A DNA stretch of 64,000 nt from Candidatus Bathyarchaeota archaeon (GTDB lineage Archaea > Thermoproteota > Bathyarchaeia > Bathyarchaeales > Bathycorpusculaceae), in assembly GCA_963777155.1 (NCBI GenBank), contig CAVZPM010000036.1, positions 76,483 to 140,482 on the forward strand, in the 5' to 3' direction. A program made the position numbers and the translations under genes. Each line of letters begins with the position of its first letter. The first letter of the stretch is position 1. The notes beneath the pieces were generated by a model. The model was not told the DNA's origin and made no database searches. It was given only the letters and a program-made list of their open reading frames with translations. Positions 40,708 to 49,851 of the stretch are shown piece after piece.

Positions 40708-42088
40708 TTAATCTCTCAAGGTTATAATCACTGATATATCGTTAACATTGGTTCCTGTTGATCCTGTGTAGATGAGGTCGCCAAGTTTCGAGAAAAAATT
40801 GTAGGAATCATTATTCGCAATATACTTTTCAGGATCCAACCCTAATTGCCTTGCTCGTTTCAGCGTGGATCCGTCAATGATTGCTCCTGCAGCATCTGTT
40901 GCCCCATCAATTCCGTCTGTGTTAAAAGAAGCAATTACGCATTCCTCAGATTCTTTAAGGTTCAAAGCTGCGGACAATGCCAGCTCTTGATTTCTACCAC
41001 CCATCCCTTTTCCCCTAACGGTTACAGTTGTCTCTCCACCAGCGACAATCCCCAGAGATCTAGAAGTATCGTTGCAGACAAAACCTTCATTGGCAAGTTT
41101 TGCTAATGTTTTCCCAACTTCCTTAGCCTCACCCGCCAACATATCAGCTAATAATAATGTGTTAAGTCCTTTAGAACCTAAGAAGTCAATGGCGCCTAGG
41201 CAAGCTGTTCGGTTGTTACCAATCACCAAATTGTGAACTTTTTCAAAAACAGGATCATTTGGTTTAGGTGTTTCCTGAAGCAGACCACTTGCGCCTTCTG
41301 AAAGGATCTTGCGAATAGAAACTGGTATCTTCAACCATAAATCATATTTTTCAAGGATTTTTCTGGCATCACTAAATGTTGACGTGTCAGGAACTGTTGG
41401 ACCAGAGGCGATTGAATCAAGTGGGTCTCCCATGACATCTGAAAGTACAAAGTTTAGGAGCGTAGCTGGATAAGCTTTTTTTGGCAAGCCATCCGCCTTT
41501 GAAAGCTGAAAGATGTTTTCGAACAGCGTTGATTTCGGTTATTTCGGCACCGCTTTTGAGAAGGGCATTCGTAAGTTCTTGTTTATCCTCGAGTGATATG
41601 CCTTTGCGAGGAAGCGGCATAAGACTTGACCCGCCGCCTGAAATCAGGCAAATAACTAAGTCATCTTCTTTGGCTTGTTCGGCTAAGGCCATAATTCGTA
41701 AAGTGCCCGCTACTCCTGCTTCGTCAGGAACTGGGTGGCGGGCTTCGTTTAGTTTTATAACTTTAGTTTTTTGGCTTGCACCATAAGGAATGTTTACAAC
41801 TCCAGCGGTTATATGGTTGCCCAGTATCTCTTCTATGGCTTGCGCCATTTTACCGCCTGCTTTTCCTCCCCCTACAACGTAAACGTGTTTGAACTTCCTC
41901 AAGTCAAACGTGCAGTCTTCAACCACGAACTGATCGTTTTTAACTTTCATTTTTGCCTTAATCAGCCGCTTAGGGTCTGCAGCGTTAACAGCTTGCTCAA
42001 GGCACTGAAGAGCTAGGTCACGGCATCTGCGAATATTTGATGTTTCTCCGTTTTCGATTAACTTATCTCGATTTATAATTTTTACCAT
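40708..42088 (-). CDS. Glycerate 2-kinase (MOFRL family), frameshifted in a 7-A run at 41476-41482
   Basis: GGGKA, HPVPD, ISGGGSSL, RKHLS.KGG, SDVMGD, GGET, GGRNQE and TGTNVND motifs spread over two ORFs. Confidence 0.9.
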
Positions 42089-42304
42089 TCGCTTTACCGT
42101 GAAATTTTTTCTACCAGTCAATATGGATATGCCTAAATAAACAATCTTGTATCGGGCTATTTTAAAAAAAGGATTTGGTTTTGCCCTTTAAATGTTCATA
42201 CGTCGTGGAGTTTCGTTTTTGGATTCATTTGACCGACCATTTAGGTATCTATGGAATTTCAGCCGAAATCGGTTGGATTATCCACAGCCGCAGGAGACCC
42301 AAAA

Positions 42305-44395
42305 CTAATTTTGAACCGGGCGAGATTTGAACCGTATTCGATTGTGGGGGGTACTGGTTGCAACAAAGTCTCTAACGAAGCGTCCATCGGTTCCAGGTCC
42401 AGAATACTTTGAGGATGGGTGGAAGAAGGTCACAAATGCGTCGAAGTAGTTCTCTTCAATCTGGGTTTTATATCCTGAGATATACTGCAAGTTTACTGCG
42501 GCCGACTTAACGTTGCCGTATCCTTCAACCATAATGCAAGCCGGCGGAAGTACGTATTGCGGAGGATGGAGCTTTATCGGCACCGTCCACCCCGCGAATA
42601 AGGTGTTGGCATGGACTAGTATTTGGAGTTCGTCTTTTTTGAGCAGTTGAAAATTCTGTCCTGCAGGCGTACCGGCAAACAGCCTTTTCCGAACTGATTG
42701 ACTTCTCGGATTGTCTCCCACTTGAGCCACTGGCACGTAGGCAAAGCCGGTTGGTGTCTCAAGCCACAAGAAGAGTATCAAAGCATCTTCTGCCCCGGTA
42801 GTCGAATGTTTCTCTATTTTTTGAACGAAAATCATCATGTCAGGTAATTCAAAGTAGTCTGGAGTATGAATGATGGCTGTTGCAACAGTAGCATACATTC
42901 GTGTGACGCCGTTCGCGGGATTTTCTGCCCGTGTTTTCTGAGCATTCAGGATTTTGTTTAAAATGTCTTTTTCCGCTGCTGTTCCGAGAAGCTTAACGTC
43001 AGTGATCATGGTATCGCTCGTCTTTTCCCGTGTCGGAAGGATATTCTTAGGAAGCGGAGTGAGCGTGGGTCCATAGGGTACAAGTACTGATTCCAGTGTG
43101 ACAGATGATGGAGGGTGAGCATTTTTCCAAATGTCGTTTAGAGTTCTTTTTGTTTTTTCCACGTACTCAAGGTCATTGGTGTAGAAGGTGTTATCGAAAT
43201 GCGGTGTTGACTCAAGGTTATCTTGGTCTGGAGATCGTGTCTTGAATTGGAAGAGGTGTTTTCCGTCGACGATTGTGGTTCCAAGATAGTTTAAGGGAGC
43301 GTGTCTGACCTCACAGATTTTTGAAAGCTGTTTTGCTGCCTCAAAGTTCTCGCTTATTATAGGCGCCATGATTTTGATTGAGACCCCGTTTTGGCTCCAA
43401 GCTGCGACGAGGACTATTTGTTTGCAGATTTCAATAATTCCTTTCGAGGAAGTCAACAGTATGATTTCCTCATTTGCCGACCGCAACGTTTCATTGTATT
43501 TTTTCTCGGCTGTCTTTCCATCGACAATAACGTATGTTTTGGCTGGTGGCTTGCCAGTTTCGATTTCGGCTATCTTTTTGCCAATGTCTGTTGAATTGCG
43601 CCATAAGTCTTCAAAGACAGCAGTAAATGCTTGCACAAGAGTCTTACTGTCTGTCCAGAGGCACACGTCATCTTGTTCTATAGCAGACGTTTCCGTTCGC
43701 GGTCTAATGAAGAATAACGCTTCTTCCTCATCTCTTAAGACCATTTGAGGAAACATACTCAAGCTAAGGTCTGGGTTTCTTCCCTCTACGTTGAGTTTAG
43801 CTTTTGCAGTTTCCTTCAGAAGAGCTTTCATGGCATTTACGTTCTGCTTTGATAGTTCGACAAGGAATCGGAATTGAATCTGGGATTTCAAAGGATGAGG
43901 GAATCCAATGTCGAAAATGCCTCGTTGATCAGCTTGGATCAAGCCCGGAACCGTTGTTATGGTTAGAATTTGGTTTTTTGTTTCTTGGATCATTTGCTGG
44001 ATTCTTGAGTATATATAGCTCCTACCTTCAACTACTGTAAACTTTGCGGGCATGTCTTTTTCTGCAATTTTGAGGCTCTGCCAATTGGAGAGAATTTCTT
44101 TTTTGCTGCTTTGCAGTCGCCGTGTTTCTTCCAGCTGCGCCTTTATGAATAAGTCCAAAACTTTTTCAAAGGGCAATGCGCTGAACCGAGCGGGATGCTC
44201 AATGGTGGAGCTTATTATTCCCTTGCTTTTCATGCTCCTAAGACTGGAGTAGAGCTGCTCCTTAGATATTTTTAGTGCTTTGCGTATGTCTAATCCCTTT
44301 TGTAGACCCTTCTTGGCGAGAAAAACGTAGACGGCGGCATCTATGTACGTGAGTCCAAAGTCCATAAGTGTCTTAAGCACTTGTTCTTGACTCAT
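42305..44395 (-). CDS. Long TrmB-family regulator: wHTH + coiled coil, two PLD-like TrmB sensor repeats, extra ~190-aa C-terminal domain
   Basis: FGLTYIDAAVYVFL...LYSSLRSMKSKGII; two repeats ending FEDLWRNS and LNDIWKNA. Confidence 0.88.
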   Translation of the reverse strand: MSQEQVLKTLMDFGLTYIDAAVYVFLAKKGLQKGLDIRKALKISKEQLYSSLRSMKSKGIISSTIEHPARFSALPFEKVLDLFIKAQLEETRRLQSSKKEILSNWQSLKIAEKDMPAKFTVVEGRSYIYSRIQQMIQETKNQILTITTVPGLIQADQRGIFDIGFPHPLKSQIQFRFLVELSKQNVNAMKALLKETAKAKLNVEGRNPDLSLSMFPQMVLRDEEEALFFIRPRTETSAIEQDDVCLWTDSKTLVQAFTAVFEDLWRNSTDIGKKIAEIETGKPPAKTYVIVDGKTAEKKYNETLRSANEEIILLTSSKGIIEICKQIVLVAAWSQNGVSIKIMAPIISENFEAAKQLSKICEVRHAPLNYLGTTIVDGKHLFQFKTRSPDQDNLESTPHFDNTFYTNDLEYVEKTKRTLNDIWKNAHPPSSVTLESVLVPYGPTLTPLPKNILPTREKTSDTMITDVKLLGTAAEKDILNKILNAQKTRAENPANGVTRMYATVATAIIHTPDYFELPDMMIFVQKIEKHSTTGAEDALILFLWLETPTGFAYVPVAQVGDNPRSQSVRKRLFAGTPAGQNFQLLKKDELQILVHANTLFAGWTVPIKLHPPQYVLPPACIMVEGYGNVKSAAVNLQYISGYKTQIEENYFDAFVTFFHPSSKYSGPGTDGRFVRDFVATSTPHNRIRFKSRPVQN

Positions 44396-44519
44396 TTTTG
44401 CTTTCCTGAGCGCCCCCACGCACTTGGTAATTAGACTGGTAGTTTTCTTTCCTACTGCCTCTAGTATATACCTTCTAAACTAAATAATATTTTCCGCTCA
44501 GAAAAAAAGAGAAGGAAAA

Positions 44520-45185
44520 ATGATGAAAAAACTGATTAAAGGAACTATTTTGACGTTGTCTCTTGCATTCATTGTTGCATCTGCTTGCTTTGCACCAGCT
44601 TTTGCCTCAGTGACATACTACCAACATACTAATTTATCCGGAGAAGTGATTATCGACATAGGGGACCACCAACCACCAATTAGGGTATCAGTTGTGCATC
44701 TTGACCGAGGCGATCACGGGGTCGCAGATTTTCTTGAAGTCTCGACATACCAATTTATTCCTCCGCTCGGCAGATCCGTTTGGGCGTCAGTTGCTGTTGT
44801 AACCGATTCCCCTTCAATGGCCGCTTTTTTCAAGGATTTTATCTTTAAGGGTCTTCCCGGTACACCCGTAACTATTTTGTTGGTCAATCACTGTCAGCTT
44901 CAGTTGTCAAGAGTATGCAAAACTGTCTTTGCCTACTGGACTGAATCGATAGCAACACCCACGGTAACGCTACCTCCAGGATGCTTGATGTTCAGAGGAT
45001 ACGGCTCTGCCCAAACTGACCACAAGGTGGAAAACTTGCCAAATGGCGTGACGATAACCTTTGACAGGGTGGGTTACGATGCGCACGCAACCTTTGTTTG
45101 TCCAGCGTGGAAGTACTGTGGACCTGTCGGAGACGAAACCACAACAATGTACGTCGCTGAGGATACGTGGATAAGCCACGCTTAA
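44520..45185 (+). CDS. Secreted protein homologous to the C-terminal domain of the neighbouring TrmB regulator
   Basis: Signal peptide ending APAFA; shared motifs FAxWT, LPPxC, GYG, DAxxTF and KYxGP. Confidence 0.85.
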   Translation: MMKKLIKGTILTLSLAFIVASACFAPAFASVTYYQHTNLSGEVIIDIGDHQPPIRVSVVHLDRGDHGVADFLEVSTYQFIPPLGRSVWASVAVVTDSPSMAAFFKDFIFKGLPGTPVTILLVNHCQLQLSRVCKTVFAYWTESIATPTVTLPPGCLMFRGYGSAQTDHKVENLPNGVTITFDRVGYDAHATFVCPAWKYCGPVGDETTTMYVAEDTWISHA

Positions 45186-45282: not shown

Positions 45283-45633
45283 TTGAGCCTTGAACGCATG
45301 CTAGATATACTAGCGAGTTTAGGGCTCACACAAAGGGATGCCCAAGTCTACATTTACCTCGCCAAAAAAGGTCCTCATGGAGAAATGGACCTTATCAATA
45401 CCATGAGACTAACTAAGCAGCAACTTCACATCAGCCTAAGAAATCTGGAAGCCAAAGGAATGGTAATCGCTTCTTTGGAACCTTTAATTCAGTTCTCCGC
45501 CATCTCGCTTGAAAAAGTTATTGACCGATTTATGAAAGCAAGGGAAGAGCAAGCGAAAGCTTTGCAGGCAAGCAGAAAGGAGCTTCTTTCAAGTTGGCGT
45601 TCGATGATGAAAAATGATACTGCCACCAGTTGA
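45283..45633 (+). CDS. Stand-alone TrmB wHTH + coiled-coil protein
   Basis: LGLTQRDAQVYIYLAKKG...; colinear with the first ~110 aa of the long regulator. Confidence 0.88.
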   Translation: MSLERMLDILASLGLTQRDAQVYIYLAKKGPHGEMDLINTMRLTKQQLHISLRNLEAKGMVIASLEPLIQFSAISLEKVIDRFMKAREEQAKALQASRKELLSSWRSMMKNDTATS

Positions 45634-45719: not shown

Positions 45720-46937
45720 ATGACAGTAACACCGTCTGTCGGGCAGTCCTCATCGAAAATGATACTTGTCGTGGCACTGCTTGTCGCAGTTTTTGCAGCT
45801 GCCGTTGTAGACGTTGTGATTCCCATCAACATTGTAGACATAGCAAAAACGTTCAGCATTCTCCCTGGAACAGTATCCCAACTTGATTCCATAATCGCCC
45901 TCGCCGCAGTAACCACTGCGCTGTTGCTGGGTGCTTTCGGCGCAAGATTCAGTTACAAATCCCTTGTAATGATAGGTATATTGTTTATTGCAGCCTATGC
46001 TATCGGGTTTTTCTTAGCTCCAACTTTTCCGATAACTCAACTCATTGTTCCATTAAATGGCATAGGGTCAGTCTTGATAGTTGTGACGGCTCAAACGTTT
46101 ATAGGAAACTCTTATCCGTTGGACAAAAAGGCTAAAGCAATCGGTTGGATTTCAGCAGCTGGAACGCTGGCAAATGCAGTTGGAGCTCCAATAATCGGCT
46201 TTATGACGGTTATCGGAGGATGGCGCTCTGCCCTTGTGTGGTTTATGCTGCCTACTGCGGTTGTCAGCCTGATTTTTGTGTTCCTAGTTTTCCGATTTAA
46301 TCTGCCTGAACCGCAGCCGAACGCTAAGAAAGCGCCTTTCATGGATGGCTTCAAGCAGATTCTTACCAGCAAATCAGCCATCGCCTGTTTAGTCAGCGCT
46401 TTTCTTGTCAATGGTTCTGTTTTCGGGGGCAATGTCTTCGAGGTAACGTTATACAGACAAATATTCTTGGTGTCGCCCGGTTTTGCAACGTTGATTGGGC
46501 CGACAGCAGGCATTGCGCTTATTGCTGCGGGGGCTGTGATTGGTGGTCACACGGTTAATCGCGTGGGACGGAAACGCTTGACTGTGATCGCTTCTTTCTT
46601 GGCAGGAGTGTTCATGTTGGTTTCTTATTTTGTTCCAGATTTATGGATGCGTGTAGCACTGCGTTGGACTGCCTCGTTTATCGGCGGCGTTTCGTTAGCT
46701 GCGTTTGCCAACTTGATGATTGAACAAGTTCCGCTTTTTAGGGGGACTGTGATGTCGCTGTCCTCAGCTTTTAGCGGTGTGGGTGCTGCTGTTGGTATCA
46801 GCGTCGCAGGAGTAGTGATCAACCTCTACCTTAACCCATCGGTAGGTTTCCAAGCGTTAGGGTTAACGATGGGCACCTTCGCTATCGTCTCTGTGCTTTT
46901 CATGCTTTTCTTGGCGAAAGACCCAACCAAAACCTGA
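45720..46937 (+). CDS. MFS transporter
   Basis: About 12 TM helices; G..GARFSYK and NRVGRKR loop motifs. Confidence 0.92.
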   Translation: MTVTPSVGQSSSKMILVVALLVAVFAAAVVDVVIPINIVDIAKTFSILPGTVSQLDSIIALAAVTTALLLGAFGARFSYKSLVMIGILFIAAYAIGFFLAPTFPITQLIVPLNGIGSVLIVVTAQTFIGNSYPLDKKAKAIGWISAAGTLANAVGAPIIGFMTVIGGWRSALVWFMLPTAVVSLIFVFLVFRFNLPEPQPNAKKAPFMDGFKQILTSKSAIACLVSAFLVNGSVFGGNVFEVTLYRQIFLVSPGFATLIGPTAGIALIAAGAVIGGHTVNRVGRKRLTVIASFLAGVFMLVSYFVPDLWMRVALRWTASFIGGVSLAAFANLMIEQVPLFRGTVMSLSSAFSGVGAAVGISVAGVVINLYLNPSVGFQALGLTMGTFAIVSVLFMLFLAKDPTKT

Positions 46938-47304: not shown

Positions 47305-47838
47305 TTAAAGATTTTTGAGGTAGTCAATTATTTTTAAGTAATCTTCAGCCGAAACGTACCAGCCGCTGTCGCGCATTTCTTTAACTTTCTCTATTAGCTT
47401 TTCCTTGTCGATTTTTCCAGTTGCATAGATTTTGCCCAAGATGTATCCGGTTCCGTGGAGTTCTATTCCCAGAATCCTTGCAACGGATCTGGCGACTTTA
47501 TCGTCAGCTACAGCTACACCATTTAGCTCCTTTGTTAAGCAGAGAATCTCGGCTTCTGCCTCATGTAATGGTTGCATTTCATTTACTGCAGCCATTTCCT
47601 TCACATATTTAAGGTATCCTTTGTTGCTGATGTTGTGAACCTTGATTATTTCTTTTTCGAATAATGTTTCTAAAAGCGACGATTCCGGAGCTCTTTTCCT
47701 TTTGCCTTCGTGGACTACTTCTTCAAACACGCTTGCCGTAGTAAATTTTGGTTGGATAATTTCTTTTAGAAACTCTGCTAAAGAAGACCTTGTCAAGTAA
47801 ATTAGAGGGGTTGAGTCGAAGACCAGCGGTTTAGGCAT
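47305..47838 (-). CDS. PIN-like DUF3368 toxin
   Basis: VFDSTPLIYL, EAEAE and ADDKVAR..A...GI..HGT motifs. Confidence 0.88.
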   Translation of the reverse strand: MPKPLVFDSTPLIYLTRSSLAEFLKEIIQPKFTTASVFEEVVHEGKRKRAPESSLLETLFEKEIIKVHNISNKGYLKYVKEMAAVNEMQPLHEAEAEILCLTKELNGVAVADDKVARSVARILGIELHGTGYILGKIYATGKIDKEKLIEKVKEMRDSGWYVSAEDYLKIIDYLKNL

Positions 47839-48155
47839 TATTGTTCCTTCAAAGCTTTTTCGAAGTCTTCGCGGAAGTCCTCATACGACTACTGGAAAGA
47901 AATTTTTCTTTGCCTCACTATCTCCATCATTTCCCAGAGGGATAAACCTGCGATCTTTGAAGCTTTCCACAGGGTTACTTTTCCGCCACTATAGAGCGCT
48001 AATGCCCTTTCGAGTTTCCTGTCTGCAATTGCCTTTGCTAAGAGTTTTCTGACCACAGTGGCACGGTCTGACTTTTCTTCTTTTTCGATTTCTTCAATGT
48101 CTTTAGCCATGTCTTCAGGAACTCGTGTTGAGACTATTTCGGTCATTGCTTTCAC
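47838..48155 (-). CDS. UPF0175/RHH antitoxin with in-frame TAG at 47889-47891
   Basis: The frame continues SFQ*SYEDFREDFEKALKEQ to a TAA that overlaps the toxin ATG. Confidence 0.8.
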
Positions 48156-48867: not shown

Positions 48868-49311
48868 TTAGAGCTCAACGAAGGGGTTTTGTACCTTAAT
48901 GAATCCATATTTATTGAAGTCTCTCACATTTTCAGTATAAATAACGTCTATCTTGTTTACCTTAGCAGAAACAGCCAAGATGCAATCAAAGATACTGGAG
49001 CCCGATAAACTCTTGCTCTTAACGAGGTTGAAGACTTCTCTAGGCACTAACTCGGAAGAAGCGATTTTCTCAATTTCGCCACATTCCCACAGATCCAGGC
49101 ATAACTCAGCGGCTCTATCCGGCGGCAAGGGCAATTCGACCCTCTTAGCGTTGGTAATGACCGCAAAAAACTCGAAAAGCACTTGCTGAGCAATACACGC
49201 TTGTATCTCCCCCGCCATCGCTCTCTCCATTATATTTCTGGCAACCTTTTGGCGAGGGGACGCCTGGTTGTAAGCATGCACTAGAATGTTCGTATCAAGT
49301 AATATCTTCAT
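48868..49311 (-). CDS. vapC: PIN-domain toxin
   Basis: LLDTNILV, FEF, FDCILA and TENVRDF motifs. Confidence 0.9.
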   Translation of the reverse strand: MKILLDTNILVHAYNQASPRQKVARNIMERAMAGEIQACIAQQVLFEFFAVITNAKRVELPLPPDRAAELCLDLWECGEIEKIASSELVPREVFNLVKSKSLSGSSIFDCILAVSAKVNKIDVIYTENVRDFNKYGFIKVQNPFVEL

Positions 49312-49537
49312 AAATCTCTTCTCTAGAAAGGCGCCCTTTTATCCGGCCAAGATTAGGCGGGTTTTCGAGCATTTCACGTGCTAACTTTGCCTTATGGCAT
49401 CCTCGGACTACACTCAGTTTAGCAACTCCTTTTTCTACAACTTCAATGTGTAGTACATCGCCATCTACTAGACCAAGCTTTTCTCTAACTCCTTTGGGTA
49501 AGTAGACTTTGTCCTCGTAGTAAGTAGTTTCAGCCAT
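49295..49537 (-). CDS. AbrB/MazE-type antitoxin
   Basis: KVYLPKGVREKLGLVDGD; overlaps the toxin start. Confidence 0.85.
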   Translation of the reverse strand: MAETTYYEDKVYLPKGVREKLGLVDGDVLHIEVVEKGVAKLSVVRGCHKAKLAREMLENPPNLGRIKGRLSREEIYEDIT

Positions 49538-49851
49538 ATCAACACTGGTTACCCAATGAATTGGGCAAAATATAAACTTTGCCAACACTATTCTTTCCAT
49601 GCCAGTCAGGTTTTTGAGGCTTTTAAGACGCATGAAAAATGCTTAAACTTAGGACGAAAACGGAACCAAAGGCTTAGCGCCGGGAGGGGATCCAAGCACC
49701 AATTTGCCAATACTCTATGTTTTGGCGACTGGATGAGATGATTGTAGCTTTCGATCTTTGCGGCATTCAGCTAGCAGACTATCCGTGATTTAAGACAGAA
49801 TTTGCGGGTAGATTTATTTGTATGTATGTATACATTATGTATTGGTAATAA

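What the first reader, a model, noticed from the sequence alone, without database searches (positions are those of the whole stretch)
42305..45185. Transcription factor carrying an internal copy of the secreted protein encoded head-to-head with it
Seen: the last ~190 aa of the TrmB regulator (~42340-42900) align colinearly with the mature secreted protein 44520-45185. Motif pairs (regulator / secreted): GAEDAL / GVADFL; PVAQVGDNP / SVAVVTDSP; FAGTP / FKGLP; ELQI...TLFAGWTVPI / QLQL...TVFAYWTESI; VLPPACIMVEGYG / TLPPGCLMFRGYG; FDAFVTFFHPSSKYSGP / YDAHATFVCPAWKYCGP. The genes share a ~125-bp divergent intergenic region. Known: TrmB regulators sense ligands through C-terminal domains, and LacI-type regulators reuse solute-binding folds. 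I do not recognise this domain. Inference: an undescribed sense-and-respond module in which one novel fold binds the same ligand outside (capture, processing or signal) and inside (sensor), with the downstream MFS moving the ligand.
Basis: partly seen in the sequence, partly recalled or inferred. Interest (0 to 1): 0.9.

Follow-up and report, generated by a model that had tools for sequence, protein, structure and literature searches.

The report
Regulator and secreted neighbour share a domain
A large archaeal gene regulator ends in a roughly 185-residue domain of no named family, the gene next to it encodes the same domain as an exported protein, and this pairing recurs in related genomes, although what the domain binds is still unknown.

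Summary
Residues 513-692 of the 704-aa TrmB-type regulator (REG, 42305-44419, minus strand) are homologous to residues 41-221 of the divergent 221-aa signal-peptide protein (SEC, 44520-45185). BLASTP gives E 5e-13; hhalign gives probability 99.5, E 1.7e-22 over 175 columns.

In all 8 SEC-type loci examined the SEC gene lies beside a REG copy: 7 head-to-head and 1 tandem and broken. Two further secreted subfamilies (c4, c17) carry the same domain (hhalign E 1.6e-21). They sit beside a full REG in 6 of 9 loci.

The domain has no Pfam, NCBIfam or PDB sequence match. Its confident AF2 model (pLDDT 92.9) resembles acetoacetate-decarboxylase-like proteins only weakly (TM 0.40-0.43).

REG is wHTH + coiled coil + two PLD-like domains + this domain. 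REG loci usually also hold a short HTH-only paralogue and a membrane protein of one of three families: an MFS or one of two small multi-pass families, one faintly ECF-S-like.

In other REG clades the partner slot holds unrelated secreted proteins. The "same ligand inside and outside" idea therefore stays plausible but unproven. I class this as a new variant of a known kind, interest 0.62.

The parts
42305..44419 (-). REG: 704-aa TrmB-family regulator. The ORF runs from the GTG at 44419; the likely true start is the ATG at 44395, which is M9.
   Evidence: (PF01978 E 4.3e-10; PF11495 E 3.1e-07)
44165..44368 (-). REG winged helix-turn-helix, residues 18-85
   Evidence: PF01978, 39.7 bits against cut-off 25.6
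44078..44170 (-). REG long helix 84-114, a presumed coiled-coil dimerisation helix
   Evidence: H84-114. The dimerisation role is inferred from TrmB/TrmBL2 (recalled).
43550..44041 (-). REG PLD-like domain 1, residues 127-290
   Evidence: TrmBL2 5bpd E 1.3e-12; phospholipase D 7e0m E 2.1e-12; PF11495 at 221-280
43115..43537 (-). REG PLD-like domain 2, residues 295-435
42344..42904 (-). REG C-terminal beta-rich domain, residues 506-692. This is the shared domain.
44396..44519 (.). Divergent intergenic region, 124 bp counted from the ATG at 44395. It presumably holds both promoters and the REG operator.
   Evidence: It is conserved against L032. No clear palindrome was found in the window itself.
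44520..44606 (+). SEC signal peptide, residues 1-29: a Lys-rich start, a hydrophobic core and an A-F-A cleavage-type motif
   Evidence: present in 16 of 17 family members; the 17th is N-terminally truncated; helix 2-28. Read by eye; no signal-peptide predictor was run.
44607..45185 (+). SEC mature part, residues 30-221 plus stop: a stand-alone copy of the shared domain
45283..45633 (+). sHTH: 116-aa TrmB-type HTH plus helix only, a paralogue of the REG N-terminus. It recurs just downstream of the partner gene.
45720..46937 (+). MFS transporter, 405 aa. It recurs in REG loci.
   Evidence: (PF07690 E 5.3e-34)

Best explanation
Shown: REG is a one-component TrmB-type regulator built from wHTH, a coiled coil, two PLD-like domains and an unnamed ~185-aa beta-rich C-terminal domain. 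SEC is an old paralogue of that last domain, fitted with a Sec-type signal peptide. The two genes are inherited together, head-to-head, usually with a short HTH-only paralogue and a transporter gene.

Inferred: REG, possibly modulated by the sHTH, binds the shared intergenic region and controls SEC and the transporter. The shared domain is a small-molecule-binding module. Inside the cell it serves as all or part of the sensor. Outside, it captures, holds or handles a related compound that the neighbouring transporter moves across the membrane. The ligand is unknown.
For: - Homology: BLASTP E 5e-13; hhalign probability 99.5, E 1.7e-22.
- Both models are confident and share their order of secondary-structure elements.
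- Pairing: in 8 of 8 SEC-type loci SEC lies next to a REG copy, 7 of them divergent.
- A second and third secreted subfamily (c4, c17) carry the same domain (hhalign E 1.6e-21 to REG). In 6 of those 9 loci they lie next to a full REG.
- Co-inheritance: in the quick REG tree, 9 of the 10 REGs with a domain-bearing partner fall in one 12-row clade (SH-aLRT 97); L035 lies just outside it. The c4 partner subtree has the same branching as the subtree of its REGs.
- Small-molecule context: 20 of the 26 neighbourhoods (25 fetched stretches plus the window) hold an MFS (8) or one of two small multi-pass membrane-protein families (c2 in 8, c6 in 4). c2 gives weak ECF S-component matches, E 2e-6, far below cut-off.
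- The top 7 Foldseek PDB hits all belong to the acetoacetate-decarboxylase-like group, whose members are, from recall, small-molecule enzymes with a funnel-shaped site.
- SEC has a conserved signal peptide. The c4 members carry many N-x-S/T sequons, which I read by eye as a sign of an extracellular location.
Against: - No ligand, pocket or DNA site was shown.
- The cognate REG is not the REG most similar to its SEC (ranks 18, 16, 23, 1 and 24 of 26-27).
- In the domain tree all 13 secreted copies lie on one side and all 23 REG copies on the other (SH-aLRT 96.5). There is thus no sign of pairwise co-adaptation.
- Mean pairwise identity is 0.31 within the c4/c17/L058 secreted set, and SEC and c4 profiles align at 19% identity, against 0.43-0.44 among REG C-domains.
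- In other REG clades the same slot holds unrelated secreted families: c7, a family ending in GYLLIP-like motifs, and an esterase (hhalign probability 0.4).
- One c4-like gene sits beside a 273-aa TrmB without the domain, and two domain-bearing secreted genes have no REG nearby.
- The best NCBIfam matches of the MFS are efflux families, all far below their cut-offs.
- The fold match is weak (TM 0.40-0.43, 8-9% identity).
Confidence: 0.4

Rival explanations
1. Regulated cargo. The REG C-domain has a role common to all REG paralogues, such as oligomerisation, signal relay to the PLD-like domains, or binding of one common metabolite. The gene slot between REG and the sHTH holds whatever secreted protein REG controls. 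In one REG clade that cargo happens to descend from a copy of the C-domain and now has an unrelated extracellular job.
For: - The slot is filled by unrelated secreted families in other REG clades.
- The secreted copies evolve much faster than the REG domains.
- A SEC's own REG is not its closest REG.
- All secreted copies split from all REG copies in the domain tree.
- Many residues of the REG C-domain are near-invariant across 18 paralogues, yet several of them differ in SEC. For example, REG H667 and E632 are invariant in A2, while SEC has Cys and Arg at the aligned positions.
Against: A cytoplasmic regulatory domain becoming a conserved exported protein three times over (SEC, c4, c17), and staying beside REG, is easier to explain if the two copies still share a property such as ligand class. 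The secreted families are conserved and intact. SEC has 16 clusters at 90% identity, and 20 signal-peptide-bearing representatives were found among the 48 newly listed hits shorter than 300 aa.
Confidence: 0.33
2. Enzyme plus enzyme-derived sensor. SEC is a secreted enzyme of a distant acetoacetate-decarboxylase-like kind acting on an extracellular substrate, and the REG C-domain is an inactive copy that senses the substrate or product.
For: The top 7 Foldseek PDB hits are all acetoacetate-decarboxylase-like enzymes (E 3.7e-05 to 2.3e-04). Enzyme-like sensor domains are common in regulators (recalled general knowledge). One REG locus has a secreted esterase in the partner slot.
Against: There is no sequence match to the Pfam ADC family or to any other family. 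No invariant Lys occurs in the SEC, REG C-domain or c4/c17 alignments; from recall, the ADC-like enzymes depend on a Schiff-base lysine. TM is only 0.40-0.43.
Confidence: 0.12
3. Feedback by mimicry. SEC that has not been exported binds the homologous REG C-domain and so reports secretion load or its own level to the regulator.
For: Homologous domains often pair with each other (general knowledge). The genes are divergent neighbours.
Against: The two proteins end up in different compartments. A SEC's own REG is not its closest relative.
Confidence: 0.05
4. Chance similarity or a mis-called ORF.
For: None found.
Against: E-values are 5e-13 and 1.7e-22. The SEC family is conserved and its frame is intact in 7 of the 8 SEC-type loci examined. 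The AF2 model is confident.
Confidence: 0.01

Closest known systems
TrmB / TrmBL2 family of archaeal regulators (PDB 3qph, 5bpd)
   Same: N-terminal wHTH (PF01978), a long helix, and a PLD-like effector-type domain (PF11495 in part; Foldseek E 1.3e-12 to TrmBL2 and 2.8e-09 to TrmB). From recall, Thermococcales TrmB lies in the gene cluster of a transporter whose extracellular binding protein recognises the same sugars.
   Different: REG is about twice as long. It has two PLD-like domains in tandem and an extra ~185-aa C-terminal domain with no named family. Here the extracellular neighbour is a paralogue of a regulator domain, which is not the case for TrmB and its binding protein (recalled). 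NCBIfam TrmBL1 scores 36.9 bits against a cut-off of 650.
LacI/GalR and LysR regulators versus periplasmic binding proteins (recalled textbook case)
   Same: One fold is used both as a cytoplasmic sensor domain of a transcription factor and as an exported binding protein.
   Different: That relationship is ancient and the genes are not kept as head-to-head paralogue pairs. The fold, the DNA-binding domain and the transporter class (ABC there; MFS or small multi-pass membrane proteins here) all differ. Ligand binding has not been shown here.
Acetoacetate-decarboxylase-like superfamily (PDB 6eej, 4zbo, 3cmb, 4jmd)
   Same: It is the best structural match of the SEC model, with Foldseek probability 1.00 and E 3.7e-05 to 2.3e-04 over about 253 alignment columns.
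   Different: TM is only 0.40-0.43 and identity 8-9%. There is no Pfam ADC match and no invariant lysine. The domain is about 60 residues shorter than those enzymes.

Membership tests
TrmB family (REG) | N-terminal TrmB-type winged HTH (PF01978) | tested here: met
   E 4.3e-10, 39.7 bits against cut-off 25.6, residues 18-85
TrmB family (REG) | TrmB effector-type (PLD-like) domain after a long helix | tested here: met
   PF11495, 30.3 bits against cut-off 22.2, but only profile positions 80-136.: helix 84-114.: TrmBL2 E 1.3e-12, TrmB E 2.8e-09, phospholipase D E 2.1e-12.
TrmB family (REG) | Sugar binding by the effector domain | not testable with these tools
   No ligand assay is available. NCBIfam TrmBL1 scores 36.9 bits against a cut-off of 650.
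Acetoacetate-decarboxylase-like superfamily (shared domain) | ADC-like fold | tested here: inconclusive
   the top 7 PDB hits are of this group, probability 1.00, but TM is 0.40-0.43 and rmsd 9-11 A
Acetoacetate-decarboxylase-like superfamily (shared domain) | Sequence membership (Pfam ADC family) | tested here: not met
   no ADC match at E up to 10 in 17 SEC and 20 REG C-domain sequences
Acetoacetate-decarboxylase-like superfamily (shared domain) | Invariant active-site lysine (feature recalled, not taken from a call) | tested here: not met
   The invariant columns of A1, A5 and A7 hold no Lys.
Sec-type secreted protein (SEC) | N-terminal signal peptide: positive start, hydrophobic core, small-x-small cleavage motif | tested here: met
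   By inspection (16 of 17 members), a hydrophobicity scan, and helix 2-28. No dedicated predictor was run.
Major facilitator superfamily (45720-46937) | PF07690 match | tested here: met
   E 5.3e-34, 118 bits against cut-off 33.4. The subfamily is unresolved.
Regulator / binding-protein paralogue pair (LacI-PBP type logic) | The sensor domain of the regulator is homologous to an exported protein | tested here: met
Regulator / binding-protein paralogue pair (LacI-PBP type logic) | Both copies bind the transported ligand | not testable with these tools
   This needs binding assays or structures with ligand.

The most novel reading that the evidence does not exclude
An undescribed fold serves as a matched inside/outside receptor pair. 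The exported copy captures a scarce small molecule and hands it to a secondary transporter (the MFS) or to an ECF-S-like membrane protein. The cytoplasmic copy, fused to a TrmB regulator, senses the same molecule. That would be a binding-protein-assisted uptake and sensing module of a new kind, multiplied into up to 8 domain matches per genome in some Bathyarchaeia.
Probability: 0.15. Interest if true: 0.85.

Novelty: new variant of a known kind. Interest (0 to 1): 0.62.

Why it matters
Bathyarchaeia are abundant and uncultured, and almost nothing is known about how they sense their surroundings. This work defines three things:
- a large regulator family, with 898 clusters at E<=1e-3 in a 5.8-billion-protein search;
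- an unnamed domain;
- a conserved four-part gene module (regulator, exported protein, short HTH, transporter) in which the exported protein is often a paralogue of the regulator's own last domain.

If the two copies bind the same compound, the exported protein would be an easy handle for finding the ligands that these archaea sense and take up. It would also be a clean natural example of one fold used on both sides of the membrane.

Tried and rejected
I used the genome search, the fetch from genomes and the search for related loci instead.
- ESM Atlas look-ups of both domains gave no usable hit.
- The Foldseek search against viral models gave only two Tupanvirus ORFans at TM 0.33-0.34, which is not informative.
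- Complex prediction of the REG C-domain with mature SEC returned no answer (score 0.03, mark 0.32). This is neither support nor evidence against binding.
- The look-up of sequencing runs listed no RNA holder, and all DNA holders had small shares (at most 0.17). I therefore laid no reads and make no statement on expression or habitat.
- Operator search: perfect palindromes of the type GTAGTC-N13-GACTAC, and variants, occur between REG and its partner in L033, L034, L042 and L043. The window and L032 show only a degenerate left half, so I claim no operator for the window.
- The test for pairwise co-adaptation (cognate REG closest to its SEC) was negative.
- The conservation of the REG C-domain in A2 (0.64) is biased by how A2 was chosen. 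In the less biased 18-REG set it is 0.44, like the other domains, so it does not show which domain sets specificity.
- The glycerate kinase and glycosyltransferase genes downstream of REG do not recur in the 8 other SEC-type locus stretches checked (L032-L036 and L060-L062). I therefore do not count them as part of the module.
- My first domain HMM was cut wrongly and covered nearly all of REG. It was replaced by the one.
- The profile used kept about 42 positions from the HTH, so its total of 1307 hits may include other TrmB proteins.
- Literature: four full-text searches found nothing on this architecture: TrmB + Bathyarchaeia; TrmB family + phospholipase D-like + archaea; TrmB + acetoacetate decarboxylase; TrmB + Bathyarchaeota. 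I saw only the listings and abstract starts and read no paper. Supplements were closed and were not needed.
Full report
**What is there.** The region holds four genes:
- REG, 42305-44419 on the minus strand, 704 aa.
- SEC, 44520-45185 on the plus strand, 221 aa.
- A 116-aa HTH-only protein (sHTH), 45283-45633, plus strand.
- An MFS transporter, 45720-46937, plus strand.

Pfam finds a TrmB wHTH in REG (residues 18-85, E 4.3e-10) and part of the TrmB effector domain (221-280, E 3.1e-07). It finds a TrmB wHTH in the sHTH and MFS_1 in the transporter (E 5.3e-34). It finds nothing for SEC. The REG family consensus begins at M9, so the likely start is the ATG at 44395 and the divergent spacer is 124 bp.

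- BLASTP of REG against SEC gives 32% identity over 120 residues, E 5e-13.
- An alignment of 17 SEC-family proteins (A1) compared with 64 REG-family proteins (A2) by hhalign gives probability 99.5, E 1.7e-22, over 175 columns. SEC 41-221 matches REG 513-692.
- The own genome has only these two copies of the domain.

**Architecture and fold.**
- AF2 on REG with A2 gives mean pLDDT 77.5. The model has a wHTH, a long helix (84-114), two alpha/beta domains (127-290 and 295-435), a low-confidence linker (442-465) and a beta-rich C-terminal domain (506-690).
- Foldseek against the PDB matches TrmBL2 (E 1.3e-12), phospholipases D (E 2.1e-12 and weaker) and TrmB (E 2.8e-09). REG is therefore a TrmB-type regulator with a tandem PLD-like core and an added domain.
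- AF2 on SEC with an 81-row alignment (A3) gives pLDDT 92.9 and pTM 0.83. It has an N-terminal helix (2-28), then 11 strands and one helix, in the same order as the REG C-domain, which has one extra short helix.
- The 7 best PDB matches of the SEC model are all acetoacetate-decarboxylase-like proteins (E 3.7e-05 to 2.3e-04), but TM is only 0.40-0.43 and identity 8-9%. Fungal pericyclases follow at E 1e-3 to 1e-2.
- At sequence level there is no Pfam, NCBIfam or PDB relative for either copy.
- None of the three family alignments has an invariant lysine. I therefore do not file the domain as an ADC-family member; at most it is a remote structural look-alike.

**Family sizes and range.**
- The REG C-domain finds 898 proteins at E<=1e-3 among candidates of 387-1232 aa. 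Most of the 120 listed are 650-730 aa and carry PF01978.
- The SEC query finds 16 clusters of 121-387 aa.
- A full HMMER scan with a mixed profile (A4) lists 164 representatives at E<=1e-30. Of the 48 newly listed representatives shorter than 300 aa, 20 have an N-terminal hydrophobic stretch like a signal peptide.
- Many of the other short hits lie on contigs of 1-3 kb, so I take them to be gene fragments cut off at contig ends.
- In 401 sampled genomes of the class, the REG C-domain profile (A5) hits 27 genomes: family f1 20 of 103, f5 5 of 18, f29 1 of 10, and none in the other families searched. The SEC profile hits 23 genomes.
- Source names, where given, are Candidatus Bathyarchaeota or Bathyarchaeia.

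**The pairing recurs.** Full or near-full SEC-type genes occur in the window genome, in G362, in G324, twice in G394, and in G352, where the gene is broken into three pieces. tblastn on 14-kb stretches shows a REG copy directly beside SEC in each case. The arrangement is head-to-head in five and tandem in G352. Two further MAG records add two more head-to-head cases (L060, L062). That makes 8 of 8, with 7 divergent. The sHTH follows SEC in 6 of the 8, and an MFS homologue lies within the stretch in 5 of the 8.

**The wider module.** I fetched 20 more REG neighbourhoods, called ORFs and clustered them.
- REG is usually head-to-head with a small protein that has an N-terminal hydrophobic segment (sequences). 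An sHTH of about 110-130 aa follows that protein.
- 20 of the 26 neighbourhoods (25 fetched stretches plus the window) hold a membrane protein of one of three families: the MFS (8), a ~200-aa multi-pass family c2 (8) or another, c6 (4). c2 gives weak ECF S-component matches (best E 2e-6, 27.8 bits against a cut-off of 108).
- The partner slot varies. It holds SEC type in 6 of these neighbourhoods, family c4 in 4, c17 in 2 (an identical duplicate pair in one contig), c7 in 3, a family with GYLLIP-like C-termini in 4, and a secreted alpha/beta-hydrolase in 1. In the remaining neighbourhoods the slot is empty or unclear.
- c4, c17 and one more protein (L058) carry the same domain. Their alignment A7 against the REG C-domain gives probability 99.4, E 1.6e-21, over 187 columns. 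Against SEC it gives E 5.4e-21.
- c7 and the GYLLIP family do not carry it (probability 0.4).
- Exceptions: one c4-like gene sits head-to-head with a 273-aa TrmB that lacks the C-domain. One c4-like gene and L058 have no REG in the stretch fetched.

**Evolution.**
- In a quick maximum-likelihood tree of 23 REG proteins, 9 of the 10 REGs with a domain-bearing partner fall in one 12-row clade (SH-aLRT 97). L035 sits just outside it. Three c4-linked REGs form a clade (100), and the window, L032 and L033 form another together with L050, whose slot holds the esterase (99). I ran no shuffle control on the label changes (11 changes).
- In a tree of the domain alone, the 13 secreted copies and the 23 REG copies fall on opposite sides of one branch (SH-aLRT 96.5). 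The c4 subtree has the same branching as the subtree of its REGs. One long branch (c17) and two rows of odd composition call for caution.
- This fits one old split followed by co-inheritance of the module, including duplication of whole modules within genomes. Up to 8 domain matches occur in one genome.
- A SEC's own REG is not its most similar REG C-domain (ranks 18, 16, 23, 1 and 24 of 26-27).
- The secreted copies diverge faster. Mean pairwise identity is 0.31 within the c4/c17/L058 set, against 0.43-0.44 among REG C-domains.

**How it most likely works.** The following are shown: a TrmB-type DNA-binding regulator, a paralogous exported protein, co-inheritance of the two, and a transporter context. 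The following are inferred:
- REG acts on the shared spacer.
- The shared domain binds a small molecule.
- The outside copy handles a related compound that the transporter moves.

I put this at 0.40. The main rival, at 0.33, is that the REG C-domain has a role common to all paralogues and SEC is simply the cargo in a variable slot. The slot's variability, the tree split and the rate asymmetry all favour that rival. An enzyme reading (0.12) rests only on the weak fold match. Feedback by direct binding (0.05) has no support; the complex prediction gave no verdict and is listed only among the things tried. Direction of transport is open, because the MFS's best, sub-threshold matches are efflux families.

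**Comparison with what is known.** REG meets the TrmB family tests for the HTH and the PLD-like domain, but it is a new long architecture. The logic resembles LacI or LysR and the periplasmic binding proteins, and TrmB with its transporter's binding protein (both recalled). It differs because the two copies are kept as adjacent paralogues, the fold has no named family, and the transporters are not ABC systems. Four full-text searches found no description of this architecture (listings only).

**Verdict.** The feature is real and recurrent and, as far as I could search, undescribed. Its function is unproven. I class it as a new variant of a known kind, interest 0.62.

Noticed in passing
window 40708-42121 (-): Two overlapping ORFs (259 aa and 234 aa, overlapping by 71 nt in different frames) lie directly downstream of REG. 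They look like one gene split by a frameshift or by an assembly error.
   Followed up: no
window 47305-48155 (-) and 48868-49633 (-): Two small gene pairs (177+88 aa and 147+112 aa) look, by eye, like PIN-type toxin-antitoxin pairs. No family search was run.
   Followed up: no
L037:6765-7355, L045:6767-7321, L053:9138-9710; L038:6728-7327, L039:9007-9534, L056:9112-9654, L052:6280-6957: Two further small families occupy the REG partner slot in other genomes: c7 and a family with GYLLIP-like C-termini. Most have an N-terminal hydrophobic segment (L052's lacks one, perhaps a mis-called start). They have no Pfam match and are unrelated to the shared domain.
   Followed up: partly
L033, L034, L042, L043 intergenic regions between REG and its partner: Perfect inverted repeats with arms of 6 or more bases, of the type GTAGTC-N13-GACTAC and variants around a T-rich spacer, lie between REG and its partner. 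They are candidate REG operators. The window has only a degenerate left half, near 44438-44457.
   Followed up: partly
L041 and L044 (both G232:C22): The c17 partner gene and its 123-bp spacer are identical in two places about 48 kb apart on one contig, in opposite orientation. This is a recent inverted duplication of a whole module, or an assembly repeat.
   Followed up: no
L049:9235-10512: This c4 member is 425 aa. It has an extra N-terminal domain of about 190 aa ahead of the shared domain.
   Followed up: no
L057:8234-9055: A 273-aa TrmB-type protein with only the HTH, the helix and the first PLD-like domain sits head-to-head with a c4-like secreted gene. It is either a natural short form or a truncated REG.
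   Followed up: no
L035, L036, L038, L041, L044, L046, L047, L052: In 8 of the 25 fetched stretches the main REG copy is split into two or more ORFs. L039 also holds a fragmented second copy beside an intact one. This suggests frequent decay of REG copies, or sequencing frameshifts.
   Followed up: no
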